Part shown: piece after piece, positions 1,371 through 54,190 of the stretch
How positions within the stretch are numbered: position 1 is the first letter of the stretch
Layout: every line of letters begins with the position of its first letter
Origin: Patescibacteria group bacterium UBA6805
GTDB taxonomy: Bacteria > Patescibacteriota > Minisyncoccia > Minisyncoccales > Minisyncoccaceae
Assembly (NCBI GenBank): GCA_002452735.1
Contig: DKFD01000011.1
Location: 1 to 64,000, forward strand
Length of the DNA: 64,000 nt
Reading direction: 5' to 3'
Notes under the pieces: generated by a model
Seen by the model: the letters and a program-made list of their open reading frames with translations, nothing else
What the model was told of the DNA's origin: nothing
Database searches by the model: none
Made by a program: the position numbers and the translations under genes

Positions 1371-1921
1371 CTTCCTAAAAACTTTAAGGCCTGTTTTATT
1401 CTTTCTTCCACGTCTTCAACGTCTTTGGGAATCTTTAAAACGGCTGCGGTGATTTCTTCTTTGGAAAATCCCAAAGAAGAAAGAGCCTGATAAACTTCGT
1501 CTTTCTTTTTCGGCTTGTTGTTTTTCATTTCCTTGATTTGTCCCGAAATTTCTAAAAGAATTTTCTGAAGTTTCTTTTTCCCAACGCCCTTCACTTCCGG
1601 AGGCATTTCTCCTTTTTCCAAAATTTCCTTGAGTTTTTCCAAAGACCCGCAAACAACCAGACTCATCGCCGTTTTCGGCCCGATCCCGGGAACATGCTTC
1701 AGAGCCTTAAAAAGCTCCAATTCTTCGAAAGATAAAAATCCGTAGAGCTCCAGGCTTTTCTCGCCCACGAAAAGAAAAGTGTAGAAATCCCTTTCTTCTC
1801 CCACCTTAATCTTTTCCAGGGCCGGCGCGGACAAAAAAACATCAAAGCCCAAGCCCTGCCTTTCCACCATCGCTCTTTTTTCATCCTTGTAGATTATTCT
1901 CCCCGACAAAAAGCTTATCAT
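1367..1921 (-). CDS. ruvA: Holliday junction DNA helicase RuvA
   Basis: 184 aa; N-terminal OB-fold region, HhH motif 'LKHVPGIGPKTA', C-terminal RuvB-interaction domain; 4-bp overlap with upstream gene. Confidence 0.9.
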   Translation of the reverse strand: MISFLSGRIIYKDEKRAMVERQGLGFDVFLSAPALEKIKVGEERDFYTFLFVGEKSLELYGFLSFEELELFKALKHVPGIGPKTAMSLVVCGSLEKLKEILEKGEMPPEVKGVGKKKLQKILLEISGQIKEMKNNKPKKKDEVYQALSSLGFSKEEITAAVLKIPKDVEDVEERIKQALKFLGR

Positions 1922-1969
1922 ATCCTTGTTAACATATTATTACTTTAATAATGCAAAATCAACAACACA

Positions 1970-2941
1970 TTAAACCTCGCTGATTACATCAAAACCCTTA
2001 AAGCTGCCAGTTATTGCCAATCCCACTATCTTATTCTTGCAAATCTTTTTTTGCCTTATTTTCCTTGCCATTTCATTAAGGGTGGCTCCGGACCCGACAG
2101 CGTCGTCAATCAGAAGAATGTTTGAAAAAACAGCGCTTTCTTCCACGGCCATGGTTTTTTGAGCGTTTTCTATCCTGTCTTCTTTTTTGCTTAATGTTTT
2201 TTGCGGAACAATGATATCTGTTTTTATTTTTGATATTTTAATGATTCTGGTTTTCAGCTTCAGGTTTTTTTCGATTTCTTTCATCAGCTGAACTTCCCTC
2301 TTCACCGTCGGCGGAATAAAACCGACACCGTCGATATTGAATTTTTTAATCAGTTTTTCGATTTTCGGCTTTATCTCCGCAACCAACCCTTTAATCATTT
2401 TTTTGTTTTGGCTGGTTTTGGCGTAAAGCAAAAGCTGGCCGAGCCTGGTCTTCCCGAACCTCTCGATGCTGTAAAAATCCAAATAGAACACCTTGTCCAC
2501 GAAAACCTCCTTGAATGTTTTAAAAAACTTGTCCGTACCGTCGATATATCCGTCTTTCTTGTATTTATCGTACTTTTCTAAAGTTTTAACATATTCTTTG
2601 GCTGTTTTTTCTATCGGCAAATTGTTCTTTTTGCACCAATAAACAAAACCTTCTGATCCTTGTTTTTCTTCCCCGGCCGAGGTTATTATCAAAAACCTGT
2701 TTTCTATTATCGGAATTGCCTCTTCGGAAATCGAATACTTTTCTTCGGTTTCTTTTTTTTCTTTCAGAGAATAAAAAACCTTGGGGGGCCGTCCTTCTTT
2801 CTTTAAAATATCGCTCTCGACCAAAATCCTTAACTGTTTTCTTACCGCCCTGTCCGTTATCTCTAGATAGTCCGAAAGCTCTGCGCCAGAGGCCTGGCCT
2901 TTTTTCCTGACATATTCGATGATTTTTTCCGATGTTTTCAT
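1970..2941 (-). CDS. winged-helix (HTH) domain fused to ComF-like phosphoribosyltransferase domain
   Basis: 323 aa; N-terminal HTH-like segment 'ASGAELSDYLEITDRAVRKQLRIL'; C-terminal PRTase signature 'ILLIDDAVGSGATLNEMARKIR' as in ComFC/amidophosphoribosyltransferase-like proteins; no Zn-finger seen. Confidence 0.55.
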   Translation of the reverse strand: MKTSEKIIEYVRKKGQASGAELSDYLEITDRAVRKQLRILVESDILKKEGRPPKVFYSLKEKKETEEKYSISEEAIPIIENRFLIITSAGEEKQGSEGFVYWCKKNNLPIEKTAKEYVKTLEKYDKYKKDGYIDGTDKFFKTFKEVFVDKVFYLDFYSIERFGKTRLGQLLLYAKTSQNKKMIKGLVAEIKPKIEKLIKKFNIDGVGFIPPTVKREVQLMKEIEKNLKLKTRIIKISKIKTDIIVPQKTLSKKEDRIENAQKTMAVEESAVFSNILLIDDAVGSGATLNEMARKIRQKKICKNKIVGLAITGSFKGFDVISEV

Positions 2942-2944
2942 AAT

Positions 2945-2971
2945 GTTCCTAGTTCCTAGTATACTAGGAAC
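2945..2971. promoter_or_regulatory. perfect 20-bp palindrome GTTCCTAGTATACTAGGAAC preceded by a third GTTCCTAG half-site; candidate operator in the divergent HTH-ComF-like / rpsT promoter region
   Basis: read directly from the sequence at 2945-2971, immediately upstream of the start of the HTH-domain gene (2941, minus strand). Confidence 0.5.
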
Positions 2972-3039
2972 TTTCTATCCTGTCAACAATTCCCCCTAGG
3001 CCTTGCACAAATTCAAGAATTAATGTATATATTTATTAT

Positions 3040-3315
3040 ATGCCAATTAAAAAATCCGCCCAAAAACAGCTTCGTCAAAACCTCAAAAGAAAGCGCGGAA
3101 ACGATGCCAAAAAAAGAGAAACAAAAGGGCTTTTAAAGAAAGTTTCTGTTTTGATTGAGCAAGGGAAAAAACAGGAGGCGGAACAAATGCTTTCCAAGGT
3201 TTACAAAAGCATAGACAAAATGGCCAAAGCCGGGCTTTTAAAGAAAAACACCGCCAGCCGAAAAAAATCTGTTTTTGCCAAAAGGATAAACAAATCCTCA
3301 AATATCAAAAATTAA
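3040..3315 (+). CDS. rpsT: 30S ribosomal protein S20
   Basis: 91 aa, basic, 'MPIKKSAQKQLRQ...' N-terminus and 'KAGLLKKNTASRKKS' typical of bS20. Confidence 0.9.
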   Translation: MPIKKSAQKQLRQNLKRKRGNDAKKRETKGLLKKVSVLIEQGKKQEAEQMLSKVYKSIDKMAKAGLLKKNTASRKKSVFAKRINKSSNIKN

Positions 3316-4212
3316 AAGATCCAGGGCCACTTCGGGGCCTATCCTCCCTGTTTTTATATCCGCATCCAAATTAAGAATTTTTTGGTAGAGATTTTTCAGC
3401 TCCTCCAAAGAAAATTGCTTGGCCTGAGCCACCGACTGCCTGAAAACAAAGGGACGCATTTCCAATTGGCCGGCGGTCTTTTCTTTCGCATCTTTCACGC
3501 TGATAATATTCCTCAACTGGTAAGAAACCATGGAAAGGAGGTAGGGAACCGAATCCCCGTTCTCCAAATGGCGCTTTATCAGTCCGGCTGCTTTTTTCTT
3601 TTCTTTCTTGGCAATGGCGTCGATGGTGGCGAAAATGTTGGAATCAAAGACGGGAAAAACCAGGGACTCCACATCTTTCTCCCTCACTTCTTTGCCCTGA
3701 ACGTAGCTGACCAGCTTGTCTATTTCTTTTTTCATTCTCCACAAATCATTGCCGACGAATTCCGCTAATTTGTTCAGGGCCGCGTTGTCGATTTCCGTTC
3801 CGGCCGAACTGAACTCTTTTTTCGCCCAGCGCTTGGTCTGCTCCAGGGTTAAGGGCTCGAAATGCTCGGTTTTAGCCCTGTCTTTCAGAAAGTTGAAAAG
3901 TTTGTCTTTTAAAGAAACCTCCTCTTCGCAAAAAACAAGGATGTTTTGGGAATCGACAAAAACGCTTCCCCGCCCGATGAAATCTTCTTTGAATTTGGAA
4001 TTGGAAAAAGAATTAAGCAGAACGAAGAGCTTTTTTTCCTTGAACATGGAAATGCTCGAAAATTCATTTTTCAAATCTTCGAAATTGATTTCTTTCCCCT
4101 CCGAAACCTTAAAATTAAGACCGCTTTTGTGCTTCTTTTTGTATTCTTCGGCTATCTCTTTAAGCTTCTGCTTCAACCTGTATGTATCTTTTCCGTAAAG
4201 AAAAATTATCAT
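3298..4212 (-). CDS. holA: DNA polymerase III delta subunit
   Basis: ORF 3298-4290; likely start at internal Met 'MIIFLYGKDTYRLKQ' (4212), which gives an ATGA overlap with the fpg stop; delta-subunit-like N-terminus and length. Confidence 0.75.
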   Translation of the reverse strand: MIIFLYGKDTYRLKQKLKEIAEEYKKKHKSGLNFKVSEGKEINFEDLKNEFSSISMFKEKKLFVLLNSFSNSKFKEDFIGRGSVFVDSQNILVFCEEEVSLKDKLFNFLKDRAKTEHFEPLTLEQTKRWAKKEFSSAGTEIDNAALNKLAEFVGNDLWRMKKEIDKLVSYVQGKEVREKDVESLVFPVFDSNIFATIDAIAKKEKKKAAGLIKRHLENGDSVPYLLSMVSYQLRNIISVKDAKEKTAGQLEMRPFVFRQSVAQAKQFSLEELKNLYQKILNLDADIKTGRIGPEVALDLLIFDI

Positions 4213-5069
4213 TTCTGGCACGAAGGACAGAAGAAAGAGCTCCTGCCTCCCTGTTTTATTCTTTTTATCTTGCCCCCGCATTCGGGGCATTGTTCTCCTT
4301 CTTTTTGATAAACTTTGGCAAAATTCTGATAACGACCCTTTTGGCCAGAGATTGTCCTGAAGTCGGAGAAGCTGTCTCCCTGAAGCTTAATTGCTTTTTT
4401 CAGTATTTTTTTGATGGCAGAATATATTCTTTTCAGTTCTTCCTGCTTTATCTTTCCTGCATCCCTGAACGGACTGATTTTCGCTTCCCAGAGAATTTCG
4501 CTGGCATAAATGTTGCCGATGCCGACGATGAATCTCTGGTCCATCAAAATCTGCTTGATTTTTCCCTTTTTAGAAGAAAAAAGCTTCTTAAACTCTTCGA
4601 AAGCGATGGTTAAAGGTTCGGGACCGAAGCTTTTAAAATATTCTTCCAAGTCCTCTCCTTCCCACAACTCAATTTTAGCAAACTTTCTTAAATCGGACAA
4701 AGCCATGTCCAGGCCTCCGGACAAAAAGAAAATCACGCGCAGAAATCGGTTCGCAGGGTCAAGAGACAACGCTCCTTTTGTTTTTGAAGCCCATTCTTTT
4801 CCCTGCTTCTGCCATTTTCCCAAAAGCAGGTGCCCGGTTATCTTCTGGTGGATTAACAAAACACTGCTGTCCGATAAGTCAAAAAGAATGTTTTTTCCTC
4901 TCCGCCTGATTCCTTTGATTTTTTTTCCTTTAATTTTTTCCCTTAAACCCTCAAAAGAAATGTTTTTAAAAAGCGTCTTGGAATCGGTCCAGGCATCAAG
5001 AAAGGTCCTCCCCCGGACCCCCTCTTCCAAGCCCCTGATAATTGTTTCTACTTCCGGAAGTTCGGGCAT
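4209..5069 (-). CDS. mutM: formamidopyrimidine-DNA glycosylase (Fpg/MutM)
   Basis: 286 aa; N-terminal catalytic 'MPELPEVE', C-terminal zinc finger 'CPECGGKIKRIKQGGRSSFFCPSCQ'. Confidence 0.9.
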   Translation of the reverse strand: MPELPEVETIIRGLEEGVRGRTFLDAWTDSKTLFKNISFEGLREKIKGKKIKGIRRRGKNILFDLSDSSVLLIHQKITGHLLLGKWQKQGKEWASKTKGALSLDPANRFLRVIFFLSGGLDMALSDLRKFAKIELWEGEDLEEYFKSFGPEPLTIAFEEFKKLFSSKKGKIKQILMDQRFIVGIGNIYASEILWEAKISPFRDAGKIKQEELKRIYSAIKKILKKAIKLQGDSFSDFRTISGQKGRYQNFAKVYQKEGEQCPECGGKIKRIKQGGRSSFFCPSCQK

Positions 5070-25237: not shown

Positions 25238-26614
25238 ATGAAGGATTTTGAGAAAACAGGAAAAACCGGAAAGAATGTTGAGCAAAAAGAAAACGAATTC
25301 GCCGTTTTTTCTAAGGGGATTATCGTTATTCTTGCCCCTATTTTAATTGCGTTTATGGCCTACGCGCTTGGACAGTGGAGTCCGTGGGCTTGGTTCTCTG
25401 TTATTTTTTCGTATATTTACATCCCATCTTATATCCTTGCTTTAGTGCTTGTTCCCCTTGTTCTTTATTTCTATTGGGCCAAACACAACGTCATAGGATA
25501 TTTCATTGAAGAAGGATACTGCATAATTTTCGCATGGAGCGGAGAAAATTTCGCCGGGGCAGACCTGCGATACGGCAAGGCGCGCTTTAATGAAAATTGG
25601 GACGTCGAGACGCCCGAAACTTCCGAAGAAAAAAAACCAATGTGGCAAAGAGGGAAAAAGATACGCATCGGAGGAATGGGTTTTTATCTCTGGCCTTTTA
25701 AAAGAATATACGAATATAATATGACTTGGGCCAAAAAGACGGAAAAGGGGGAAAGAGTTTCCAAAACCGAAAAACTTTCCCGCGTTCTTCTGAAGCCGTA
25801 CGTTTATTCTCTCGAGTATCAAAACATGGAAGATGCGGACAGAATGCCCATCAATATTGAGATAGCGGCTGAAATGCAAATAATAAACCCCATTAAAGCC
25901 CTATTCGGAGTGGAAAGATGGTATAGAGCCATCTTAAACATGACAGAGGGCGAGGTAAGGAAGTATATCGGGGAAAACCTTTATATAAAACTGATTAACC
26001 GTAAAAGTCAGGAAGAAGTGGGCGAAAAAATTAAGGAACAAATGAAAAACGTCTTGCAAGATTTTAATGCAGAGTATGGTGTCAATGTAAAGAGAATAAA
26101 AGTAATGCAAGTGGTTCCTTCAAGAAAAGAAGATGTTGAGGCAACTCTTAAAGCAATGCAGGCTGAAAGAGAAAGGGAGCGAGTAATAATCACAGCCCAG
26201 GCCGAAGCGGTTAAAATAGGGCAAGAACTTACGGGTGCCGTCATGCAGGCGCTGAGCTTGATGACCGGCATAAAAACAACCGAGCTCCAAGCGGAATTCA
26301 TCGCTGCTCCCGAGGCGTTTGAAAAAAAATACGGGGTAGCGTACAGGGAGGCCTATGACTTTGCGAAAAGAAGGATGGGCTTCGTCCAAAAAGGACGCAT
26401 TGAAATCATAACAGCCGATGGCTGCGACAAAGAAGGAAGTGCTTGTCCCAACAGCGGCGGCATAAATACGGACAAGTTGATAGAGGTTATAGCGGCGGTT
26501 GAGATGACGAAACAGGCGCTTTCCCAAAGGCCCGGGAGTCCTGCCCGGGAAGGAAGCGAAAAGAATCCTTTGTCTCTGGAAGAGAAAAAAAATAAGCTCG
26601 GACTAAAATATTAG
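25238..26614 (+). CDS. SPFH/band-7 (stomatin/prohibitin/HflK-like) membrane protein
   Basis: 458 aa; N-terminal TM helices, SPFH-like core 'VNVKRIKVMQVVPSRKEDVEATLKAMQAERERERVIITAQAEA'. Confidence 0.55.
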   Translation: MKDFEKTGKTGKNVEQKENEFAVFSKGIIVILAPILIAFMAYALGQWSPWAWFSVIFSYIYIPSYILALVLVPLVLYFYWAKHNVIGYFIEEGYCIIFAWSGENFAGADLRYGKARFNENWDVETPETSEEKKPMWQRGKKIRIGGMGFYLWPFKRIYEYNMTWAKKTEKGERVSKTEKLSRVLLKPYVYSLEYQNMEDADRMPINIEIAAEMQIINPIKALFGVERWYRAILNMTEGEVRKYIGENLYIKLINRKSQEEVGEKIKEQMKNVLQDFNAEYGVNVKRIKVMQVVPSRKEDVEATLKAMQAERERERVIITAQAEAVKIGQELTGAVMQALSLMTGIKTTELQAEFIAAPEAFEKKYGVAYREAYDFAKRRMGFVQKGRIEIITADGCDKEGSACPNSGGINTDKLIEVIAAVEMTKQALSQRPGSPAREGSEKNPLSLEEKKNKLGLKY

Positions 26615-26623
26615 TCCGATTTT

Positions 26624-54026: not shown

Positions 54027-54190
54027 GGATTAAAGTTAATCATAAAAGGTGAAGTGTTTATGAAAAAACTTTTTATTTGTAGGAATTTTTCCGATTGTTT
54101 AATTATAAATTTTTTAATTAATAAAAGATATTCTTTAGCATGTGCTAAAGAATTTTTAATAAATAAAAATATAATAAAAAAATAAATAAT

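What the first reader, a model, noticed from the sequence alone, without database searches (positions are those of the whole stretch)
2945..2971. Perfect 20-bp palindrome (three GTTCCTAG half-sites) in the promoter of the HTH-ComF-like gene
GTTCCTAGTATACTAGGAAC is a perfect inverted repeat with an extra direct half-site immediately 5'. It sits between the divergent starts of the HTH-PRTase gene (2941) and rpsT (3040). This is a textbook operator for a dimeric winged-helix protein, presumably the adjacent HTH domain acting as an autoregulator.
Basis: seen in the sequence. Interest (0 to 1): 0.55.

Follow-up and report, generated by a model that had tools for sequence, protein, structure and literature searches.

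The report
Self-repression operator of a CPR regulator
The palindrome is very probably the DNA site where the neighbouring helix-turn-helix/phosphoribosyltransferase protein binds to shut off its own promoter; the same three-part site recurs upstream of this gene across the Patescibacteria, and its sequence changes together with the protein's DNA-reading helix.

Summary
GTTCCTAGTATACTAGGAAC (2952-2971) is a perfect palindrome, with a third overlapping GTTCCTAG at 2945-2952. It lies between the 323-aa wHTH-PRTase gene (1970-2941, minus) and rpsT (3040-3315). The palindrome alone is not statistically unusual (3 perfect 8-N4-8 in the window, about 2 expected). The comparative evidence decides the case.

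An 11/12 sigma70-type promoter for the gene (TTGACA-17-TATACT) has its -10 at the dyad centre. In 68 of 80 orthologous loci the same three-half-site layout sits just upstream of the gene and almost nowhere else in 484 kb. Half-sites fall into classes (GTTCCTA, GTTCATA, GTTGACA, GTTTACA) in which all three copies change together. The three protein positions most informative about class are residues 34, 31 and 30, at the start of the predicted recognition helix.

The element overlaps the core promoter or start site in 66 of 67 scorable loci. No other gene neighbour is conserved and no further target site was found.

Verdict: an autoregulatory, most likely repressive, operator of an uncharacterised Patescibacteria-wide wHTH + ComF-like PRT protein. 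It resembles PurR in architecture but belongs neither to the PurR nor to the ComFC family. Binding, the sign of regulation and the effector remain untested.

The parts
2952..2971 (.). Perfect 20-bp palindrome GTTCCTAG-TATA-CTAGGAAC. This is 7-mer arm GTTCCTA (2952-2958), spacer GTATAC (2959-2964) and arm TAGGAAC (2965-2971). Proposed primary dimer-binding site of the operator.
   Evidence: Orthologous palindromes appear. The site is invariant in the 93% relative; the 89% relative has one change (G to A at arm position 8) that leaves the 7-mer intact.
2945..2951 (.). Third half-site GTTCCTA, a direct repeat stepped by 7 nt, with G2952 shared if read as the octamer GTTCCTAG. On the gene strand it reads TAGGAAC and lies 3 nt before the ATG. 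It contains AGGA (2950..2947), a Shine-Dalgarno-like motif 5 nt from the start codon.
   Evidence: A third copy in the same register is present in 68 of 80 orthologous loci at no more than 1 mismatch in total. It always changes with the other two copies.
2981..2986 (-). Predicted -35 hexamer TTGACA of the wHTH-PRTase gene promoter.
   Evidence: TTGACA-17-TATACT, 11 of 12 matches. Invariant in L001 and L143. The same TTGACA-17-TAxACT geometry with the dyad at the -10 occurs in 11 other loci.
2958..2963 (-). Predicted -10 hexamer TATACT, formed by the palindrome's central spacer plus the first base of the next arm. The predicted transcription start is near 2950/2951, giving a leader of about 9 nt.
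   Evidence: The start-site position is inferred from the usual distance of about 7 nt, not measured.
1970..2941 (-). Gene for the 323-aa wHTH + ComF-like PRT-domain protein, the proposed autorepressor.
2816..2854 (-). Codons for residues 30-42, the predicted recognition helix of the wHTH. D30, R31 and R34 are the residues that covary with the half-site class.
   Evidence: The AF2 model has a helix at 30-42. Mutual-information ranking is and class tables. The N-terminal domain superposes on the AspA wHTH solved with DNA.
2078..2116 (-). Codons for residues 276-288, LLIDDAVGSGATL. This is the PRPP-binding loop of the PRT domain and the presumed effector pocket.
   Evidence: D279, G283, S284, G285, A286 and T287 are invariant in A1. 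The matching H. pylori ComFC loop is DDIITTGTTL, in which T165A abolishes nucleotide binding (PMC9005727).

Best explanation
The 27-bp element at 2945-2971 is the operator through which the adjacent 323-aa protein controls its own promoter. That protein has an N-terminal winged HTH and a ComF-like phosphoribosyltransferase-fold domain.

Proposed mechanism: a dimer places its two recognition helices (residues 30-42) in the two inverted GTTCCTA arms. The specificity-bearing inner bases of the arms are about 11 bp apart. The dyad centre is also the -10 hexamer, and the third half-site covers the predicted start site and ribosome-binding region. A bound protein would therefore exclude RNA polymerase, giving negative autoregulation.

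The third half-site, offset by 7 bp, is a conserved part of the site. It probably recruits a further subunit or dimer, or offers an alternative register. The PRT domain keeps an intact PRPP loop and probably binds PRPP or a nucleotide that tunes DNA binding, as in B. subtilis PurR.

Shown by computation: the element and its position; its conservation with the gene; covariation with the recognition helix; absence of other copies. Inferred: binding itself, dimeric state, repression rather than activation, the role of the third site, and the identity and effect of the ligand.
For: Position. An 11/12 promoter, TTGACA-17-TATACT, reads into the gene with its -10 at the dyad. Across 67 orthologous loci with a scorable promoter, the element overlaps the core promoter or start site in 66. 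It does so in three stereotyped geometries: -44..-18 (36 loci), -21..+5 (12 loci, including the window) and -6..+20 (18 loci).

Conservation and specificity. An unbiased scan for any 7-mer in the layout w-N6-rc(w) plus a third copy at 7 nt found 82 hits in 483,817 nt. Of these, 73 lie within 120 nt upstream of the gene in 66 loci. L039 and L043, which use GTG starts, bring the total to 68 of 80 loci. Shuffled sequence gave 0-3 hits. In a metagenome sample, 9 of 10 three-site GTTCCTA elements sit 2-39 nt from this gene's start or at its truncated N-terminus.

Covariation. GTTCCTA goes with R31/R34 in 29 of 29 loci. GTTCATA goes with R31/F34 in 8 of 8. GTTGACA goes with Q31 in 21 of 21, with F or Y at 34. 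GTTTACA goes with M31 (9) or Q31 (4), and mostly S34. Positions 34, 31 and 30 rank 1-3 of 323 by mutual information and lie at the start of the helix at 30-42 in the model (pLDDT 84.8). Overall identity within classes (0.60) is about the same as between classes (0.58). Classes are interspersed on a tree built from residues 70-323, with about 22 inferred switches.

No other conserved partner. Neighbouring genes are shared only with the 89% relative.

Short-range footprint. The -35 hexamer and the 27-bp element are invariant apart from one G-to-A change at arm position 8 in L001, while nearby intergenic bases vary.

A 41%-identical tandem paralogue has its own, different perfect palindrome between its -35 and -10.

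Fold. The wHTH resembles ArsR/MarR/AspA. The C-terminal domain is closest to H. pylori ComF, PyrR and HPRT.
Against: There is no experimental evidence of binding or of the sign of regulation.

The palindrome alone is no rarer than chance in this window.

Promoter and start-site assignments are consensus matches only. Ten loci had no promoter scoring at least 9/12.

The operator and the HTH-coding segment are less than 150 bp apart, so some of their association could reflect co-inheritance or cassette exchange rather than selection. Against this, the signal is concentrated in three recognition-helix residues and not spread over the N-terminal domain.

A dimer cannot use three half-sites, so the stoichiometry is unexplained.

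The protein is very strongly conserved (57-93% identity across candidate phyla). That is more than expected for a regulator whose only detectable target is itself, which suggests a second, unknown function. A regulon could not be searched for in a whole genome.
Confidence: 0.82

Rival explanations
1. RNA-level element. The palindrome is transcribed and forms a 5'-UTR hairpin that controls translation or stability. It might be bound by the PRT-fold domain, as PyrR binds its RNA target. The third repeat would then offer an alternative pairing partner.
For: The arms can pair as an 8-bp stem with a 4-nt loop. The third copy could pair with the first arm in place of the second. In 18 loci the whole element lies between the -10 and the ATG and would be transcribed. 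PyrR-type PRT proteins are among the structural matches. In the window the third repeat contains the Shine-Dalgarno-like AGGA.
Against: In the window and 11 other loci the predicted -10 is inside the element. In 36 loci the element covers the -35 and spacer. In those 48 loci the hairpin would not be in the transcript. The half-site class covaries with the wHTH recognition-helix residues, not with PRT-domain residues. A hairpin needs only complementarity, yet all classes keep the frame GTTnnnA, as expected for a protein-read site.
Confidence: 0.06
2. Operator for a different, unlinked regulator, or a site shared with the divergent rpsT gene. The adjacent protein would not be the binder.
For: The element lies in a divergent intergenic region, 69 nt from the rpsT ATG. 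Binding by the adjacent protein is not demonstrated.
Against: rpsT is next to the gene only in the 89% relative. The element nevertheless follows the wHTH-PRTase gene in 68 of 80 loci. Covariation with the adjacent protein's recognition helix is hard to explain if another protein reads the site. The predicted rpsT promoter (about 3004-3033) does not overlap the element.
Confidence: 0.05
3. No dedicated function. The palindrome would be a chance inverted repeat, a by-product of promoter and ribosome-binding-site sequence, or a copy of a dispersed repeat (REP- or MITE-like).
For: Perfect 8-N4-8 palindromes occur at about the chance rate in this window (3 observed, 2.08 expected). The centre doubles as a -10 and the third repeat as a Shine-Dalgarno-like motif.
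Against: There are no other copies in the window at up to 3 mismatches. The three-copy layout occurred once in 300 simulated windows. The layout is conserved with compensatory changes in all three copies across 68 of 80 loci and is essentially absent elsewhere. Classes that contain no AGGA keep the third copy.
Confidence: 0.03
4. Positive autoregulation, or a ligand-dependent switch between activation and repression. The protein would bind the element but recruit or reposition RNA polymerase rather than only excluding it. It might do this by alternating between the 13-bp and 20-bp spaced arm pairs.
For: The three half-sites allow two alternative inverted pairs: arms 1+2, or arms 1+3 about two helical turns apart. 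In the GTTGACA class the half-site itself supplies the -35 hexamer. The sign of regulation is untested.
Against: The element occupies three different positions that all fall within the RNA polymerase footprint, including -6..+20. That position is typical of repressors, not activators. Promoters already match the consensus closely (11-13 of 12-13 score points) with 16-18 bp spacers, so they should not need an activator.
Confidence: 0.04

Closest known systems
Bacillus subtilis PurR and its PurBox operators
   Same: A DNA-binding winged-helix domain is fused to a PRT-fold domain that serves as the effector sensor: PRPP is the inducer and (p)ppGpp the anti-inducer (PMC8789054). It is a repressor acting at promoters through inverted repeats. 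That purR is itself autoregulated is from my own knowledge, not checked here.
   Different: The window protein does not match the PurR-specific N-terminal domain PF09182, even at E up to 1. PurR is absent from the top 50-60 fold matches. PurBoxes are 14-bp elements with a CGAA core separated by 16-17 bp. Here the arms are 7-8 bp, separated by 6/4 bp, with a third arm at 7 nt. PurR controls a regulon of about 15 sites; here no target other than the gene itself was found. The PRT domain here is closest to ComF.
ComFC (ComF) competence proteins, e.g. H. pylori ComFC, PDB 7p0h
   Different: ComFC has an N-terminal 4-Cys zinc finger, is membrane-associated and binds single-stranded DNA. The window protein has a wHTH in place of the zinc finger and a 27-bp double-stranded operator at its own promoter. 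TIGR00201 scores 28 bits against a cut-off of 233.55.
Autoregulated winged-helix repressors of the ArsR/SmtB and MarR type
   Different: Those families have their own dimerisation helices and metal or small-molecule sites within or beside the wHTH. Here the effector domain is a 250-residue ComF-like PRT module. The operator has a conserved third half-site, and no family model reaches its cut-off.
Fur box read as three hexamers or two overlapping inverted repeats
   Same: The topology is two direct repeats plus one inverted repeat of a short unit. For Fur this is explained by two dimers binding overlapping sites on different faces of the helix. This comparison is from my own knowledge and is only a lead.
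   Different: The protein fold context and the unit length differ (6 against 7 bp). Nothing here tests stoichiometry.
Bifunctional enzyme-repressors such as BirA (HTH_11 + biotin ligase)
   Same: An HTH_11-type N-terminal domain is fused to an enzyme-fold domain. The very high conservation of the non-HTH part suggests the protein may have a second activity, with expression set by self-repression.
   Different: No catalytic activity is known or tested for this protein. BirA regulates the bio operon rather than only itself.

Membership tests
PurR family (Firmicutes purine repressor) | PurR-specific N-terminal DNA-binding domain (Pfam PF09182, PuR_N) | tested here: not met
   The Pfam scan at E up to 1 lists 12 families without PF09182. 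PF09182 is described as unique to PurR in PMC8789054.
PurR family (Firmicutes purine repressor) | C-terminal PRT-fold effector domain | tested here: met
   There is a weak Pribosyltran hit at aa 252-305. The PRPP loop is intact.
PurR family (Firmicutes purine repressor) | PurBox operator: two 14-bp boxes with a CGAA core, 16-17 bp apart | tested here: not met
   The element is GTTCCTA-N6-TAGGAAC plus a third arm.
PurR family (Firmicutes purine repressor) | PRPP-relieved DNA binding | not testable with these tools
   This needs EMSA or footprinting with and without PRPP or nucleotides.
ComF/ComFC competence protein family | N-terminal 4-Cys zinc finger | tested here: not met
   The N-terminus is a wHTH. 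In one search, C103 is the only Cys among the invariant columns of A1 and C301 the only one among the nearly invariant columns, so there is no conserved 4-Cys motif.
ComF/ComFC competence protein family | PRT domain with a canonical PRPP loop | tested here: met
ComF/ComFC competence protein family | Score above the curated family cut-off (TIGR00201) | tested here: not met
   28 bits against a cut-off of 233.55, with only aa 247-308 matched.
Autoregulatory repressor operator (generic class) | Inverted repeat overlapping the regulator's own core promoter | tested here: met
   The -10 lies at the dyad in the window. 66 of 67 orthologous loci overlap the promoter or start site. Promoters are predictions only.
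Autoregulatory repressor operator (generic class) | The site is conserved upstream of orthologues and changes in step with the regulator's DNA-reading residues | tested here: met
   The layout is present in 68 of 80 loci. Residues 34, 31 and 30 are the top three by mutual information. Classes are interspersed on the tree.
Autoregulatory repressor operator (generic class) | Demonstrated binding and repression | not testable with these tools
   This requires EMSA, footprinting or a reporter assay.
Dispersed repeat (REP/MITE-like) or intrinsic terminator | Many copies per genome, or a position at the 3' end of a gene with a T-run | tested here: not met
   It is a single copy in 64 kb at up to 3 mismatches. 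The terminator scan did not report it. No gene converges on it.

The most novel reading that the evidence does not exclude
This may be the operator of a Patescibacteria-wide sensor-regulator, possibly a bifunctional enzyme-repressor. The protein would couple PRPP or nucleotide status, which is central to organisms that live by salvage, to its own level.

Its HTH-operator pair has been recoded many times: at least four specificities and up to about 20 switches on the protein tree. That yields a readable recognition code: R31/R34 for CCT, R31/F34 for CAT, Q31/F34 for GAC, M31/S34 for TAC.

The conserved three-half-site geometry would let the protein switch between two binding registers (arm pairs 13 bp and 20 bp apart) in response to ligand.
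Probability: 0.2. Interest if true: 0.75.

Novelty: new variant of a known kind. Interest (0 to 1): 0.55.

Why it matters
Very little is known about gene regulation in Patescibacteria/CPR, which have small genomes and are mostly uncultured. This work identifies a strongly conserved protein family that no curated model covers and pairs it with a defined, easily synthesised DNA site. The family shows more than 4000 clusters at 90% identity and 57-93% identity to the window protein.

The result gives an immediately testable protein-DNA pair: EMSA, a reporter in E. coli, or DAP-seq. It provides natural specificity variants for dissecting wHTH readout. It also gives a handle on what the ComF-like PRT domain senses.

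If the effector is PRPP or a nucleotide, this would be an independent, PurR-like solution to nucleotide-status sensing in organisms that depend on salvage. Orthogonal operator/repressor pairs from the four classes could also serve as compact synthetic-biology parts.

Tried and rejected
(1) Regulon search. No second site was found in the 64-kb window at up to 3 mismatches. An own-class two-arm scan of all loci gave one exact extra site, L054:1794. It proved to be a duplicated copy of the same promoter flanking an inserted IS200/RAYT-like ORF, not an independent target. L037:5577 is an orphan element of another class next to a tandem paralogue.

It returned mostly chance two-arm matches in unrelated organisms (111 of 121 sites, GC 0.23-0.71). 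It was informative only for the 10 three-site hits. With hindsight a 21-base three-site pattern would have used the single scan better.

(3) Synteny as a clue to function. Neighbours are not conserved beyond the 89% relative.

(4) PurR membership was rejected.

(5) ComFC membership was rejected: no zinc finger, and far below the family cut-off.

(6) A terminator reading was rejected.

(7) The first palindrome-finding scripts were misled by AT-rich sequence in some loci. They were replaced by the layout-based scan.

(8) Literature searches for a prior description found nothing relevant. 'PRTase-CE' returned no paper.

(9) Whole-genome scanning and dimer or DNA-complex modelling were not possible with the tools available.

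Full report
OBSERVATION. Window 2945-2971 reads GTTCCTAGTTCCTAGTATACTAGGAAC. The perfect 20-bp palindrome GTTCCTAG-TATA-CTAGGAAC is 2952-2971. A third GTTCCTAG at 2945-2952 shares one G with it. The natural unit is a 7-mer: GTTCCTA (2945-2951), GTTCCTA (2952-2958), spacer GTATAC (2959-2964), TAGGAAC (2965-2971). The element lies between the start of a 323-aa ORF on the minus strand (1970..2941) and rpsT (3040..3315; Ribosomal_S20p, E 1e-19). It is the only match in the 64-kb window even at 3 mismatches, and all three GTTCCTAG octamers in the window are here.

A caveat applies. A perfect 8-N4-8 palindrome is not rare in itself. The window has three, against 2.08 expected from Markov-1 simulations. 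The other two are a bidirectional terminator at 26599 and a hairpin with a T-run at 54132. The exact three-copy layout is rarer, occurring once in 300 simulated windows.

ANATOMY. Read on the gene strand the region is TTGACA-ggatagaaa-GTTCCTA-GTATAC-TAGGAAC-TAGGAAC-att-ATG. The consensus scan finds TTGACA(2986..2981)-17-TATACT(2963..2958), 11 of 12 matches. The -10 hexamer is therefore the centre of the dyad. With the usual spacing the transcript would start near 2950/2951. The third half-site would then be the first bases of a leader of about 9 nt, and it contains AGGA 5 nt before the ATG. These positions are inferred, not measured. The predicted rpsT promoter (about 3004-3033) does not overlap the element.

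The family is large and tightly conserved. A word-index search returned more than 4000 hits, and the listed relatives range from 57% to 93% identity, all labelled Patescibacteria/CPR where credibly named. There are 215 clusters at 50% identity with E up to 1e-30, keeping a full length of about 325 aa.

COMPARATIVE TEST OF THE OPERATOR IDEA. I fetched 80 orthologous loci and read the 75 nt upstream of each start. Nearly all show the same layout, with different half-site sequences. An unbiased scan for any 7-mer w arranged as w-N6-rc(w) plus a third copy at a 7-nt step, with at most 1 mismatch in total, gave 82 hits over all 483,817 nt. Of these, 73 lie within 120 nt upstream of the gene in 66 loci. 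L039 and L043 have GTG starts that my start-finder missed, which brings the total to 68 of 80 loci. Elsewhere there was only a simple repeat and one orphan element, L037:5577. Shuffles gave 0-3 hits. The half-sites fall into classes: GTTCCTA (29 loci), GTTGACA (21), GTTTACA (13), GTTCATA (8) and a few singletons. In each class all three copies change together. The third copy may lie on the gene-proximal or the gene-distal side (47 against 26 hits).

COVARIATION WITH THE RECOGNITION HELIX. The pairings are as follows.
- GTTCCTA goes with R31 and R34 in 29 of 29 loci.
- GTTCATA goes with R31 and F34 in 8 of 8.
- GTTGACA goes with Q31 in 21 of 21, with F or Y at 34, usually R30.
- GTTTACA goes with M31 (9) or Q31 (4) and mostly S34, with R30 in 13 of 13.

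Across all 323 positions, the three with the highest mutual information with operator class are 34, 31 and 30 (1.34, 1.23 and 1.18 bits). They are positions 5, 2 and 1 of the helix at 30-42. Overall identity within classes (0.60) hardly exceeds that between classes (0.58). On a neighbour-joining tree of residues 70-323 the classes are interspersed: 22 Fitch changes, against 34.5 for permuted labels. The association therefore does not rest on three or four clade-defining events, although the tree is noisy. Because the operator and the HTH codons are less than 150 bp apart, cassette co-inheritance could contribute. But the signal is concentrated in three helix residues and not spread across the N-terminal domain.

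GEOMETRY. Relative to the best sigma70-like promoter in each locus, the element covers -44..-18 in 36 loci. These are mostly GTTGACA-class loci, where the half-site itself supplies the -35 hexamer. It covers -21..+5 in 12 loci, including the window, with the -10 at the dyad. It covers -6..+20 in 18 loci. One locus had the element upstream of the -35, and 10 had no scorable promoter. All three geometries fall in the RNA polymerase footprint, which favours repression by occlusion. Only the third geometry would put the whole element in the transcript, which argues against a general RNA-hairpin role.

SHORT-RANGE FOOTPRINT AND LINKAGE. In the 93% and 89% relatives (L143, L001) the -35 hexamer, the element and the rpsT promoter are invariant, apart from one change at arm position 8 in L001. 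That change leaves the 7-mer intact. Substitutions cluster between these features. Neighbouring genes (ruvA, Mur ligase, rpsT, holA, fpg) are shared only with L001, so the element travels with this gene alone. A 41%-identical tandem paralogue in L037 has a different perfect palindrome (CAGGTTAAT|ATTAACCTG) between its own -35 and -10.

OTHER TARGETS. None was found. The window has no second site. The only exact own-class site outside a promoter in the loci (L054:1794) is a duplicated promoter copy flanking an inserted IS200/RAYT-like ORF. Of the 10 with a third arm, 8 were 2-39 nt from this gene's start. A ninth (L091) precedes the gene's N-terminus (KTSDKIIEYLK), which runs off the contig. 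The tenth is a GC-rich repeat. A small regulon cannot be excluded without whole genomes.

INTERPRETATION. The best explanation is a negatively autoregulated operator read by the adjacent wHTH. The inner, class-specific bases of the two inverted arms are about 11 bp apart, which suits a dimer on one face of the helix. The third arm, 7 bp further on, is conserved but unexplained. It might recruit a second dimer on another face, as in the overlapping-repeat reading of Fur boxes (my own knowledge, a lead only), or it might offer an alternative register. The PRT domain probably senses PRPP or a nucleotide, as in PurR, where PRPP is the inducer and (p)ppGpp the anti-inducer (PMC8789054). That step is inference.

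The protein is not a PurR: there is no PF09182 match, the operator is of a different kind, and PurR is absent from the fold lists. It is not a ComFC either: there is no zinc finger, and the score is far below the family cut-off. It works like an autoregulated wHTH repressor with a PurR-like domain logic, apparently assembled independently. The very high conservation of the non-HTH part suggests an additional, unknown function.

PRIOR KNOWLEDGE. Full-text searches found no description of this fusion or its operator. The CPR protein-family survey mentions ComFC/ComFA only as a competence component.

VERDICT. The kind of feature, a self-operator, is ordinary. The family, the three-arm architecture and the repeated recoding of specificity across Patescibacteria are new and directly testable.

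Noticed in passing
window 3003-3042: The predicted rpsT promoter (TGCACA-18-TATATT, ending at 3033) ends only about 6 nt before the ATG at 3040, and no Shine-Dalgarno motif is present. rpsT may therefore be translated from a leaderless or near-leaderless mRNA. Many orthologous wHTH-PRTase genes (GTTGACA class) likewise have a -10 ending 5-9 nt before the ATG.
   Followed up: partly
L054:1700-1815 and L054:2870-2985: The promoter and operator region of the wHTH-PRTase gene is duplicated on either side of an insertion of about 1.1 kb. The insertion carries a 209-aa ORF (1883..2512) that looks like an IS200/RAYT-type Y1 transposase; this was judged from its motifs only and not searched. The upstream copy has lost the third half-site.
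   Followed up: partly
L037:4309-5286 and L037:5570-5640: A tandem paralogue (41% identity) of the wHTH-PRTase gene has its own, different 18-bp perfect palindrome, CAGGTTAATATTAACCTG, in its promoter. About 290 nt after its stop lies an orphan three-arm element of another class (GTTTACAGTTGACAGTAAACTGTAAAC). It is followed by a terminator-like hairpin, GTGGGCATTTAATGCCCAC plus a T-run. This may be a small transcript or the remnant of a lost copy.
   Followed up: partly
window 3298-3315 and 4209-4290: The holA ORF (3298..4290, minus) overlaps the 3' end of the convergent rpsT by 18 nt. As listed from its first ATG, it also overlaps the end of fpg (4209..5069) by 82 nt. The true holA start is probably the internal Met of MIIFLYGKDTY, near 4212.
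   Followed up: no
window 26599-26618 and 54132-54151: These are the other two perfect 8-N4-8 palindromes in the window. CGGACTAAAATATTAGTCCG is flanked by an A-run and a T-run between convergent genes, so it looks like a bidirectional terminator. TCTTTAGCATGTGCTAAAGA is followed by TTTTT and lies 40 nt before the ATG (54191) of a 1468-aa ORF, so it could be a terminator or an operator.
   Followed up: partly
L014, L019, L020, L023, L028, L031 and others (record titles): Several loci encoding this Patescibacteria-type protein come from MAGs titled 'uncultured Gammaproteobacteria', 'Bdellovibrionales', 'Melainabacteria' or 'Omnitrophota'. These titles look like mislabelled or mis-binned taxonomy.
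   Followed up: no
L043:2937-2977; L005 and L007 at about 2943-2970: Some orthologues carry four half-sites instead of three. L043 has GTTCCTA GTTCCTA ATTCAC TAGGAAC TAGGAAC (2+2). L005 and L007 have a 13-1-13 palindrome, GTTGACAGTTGAC-A-GTCAACTGTCAAC. This hints that the ancestral site may be two nested palindromes.
   Followed up: no
L182:170-260: A GC-rich (0.56) contig unrelated to Patescibacteria carries a cluster of CTAGGAAC/GTTCCTAG repeats in both orientations. It is an unrelated repeat that matched the search pattern by chance.
   Followed up: no
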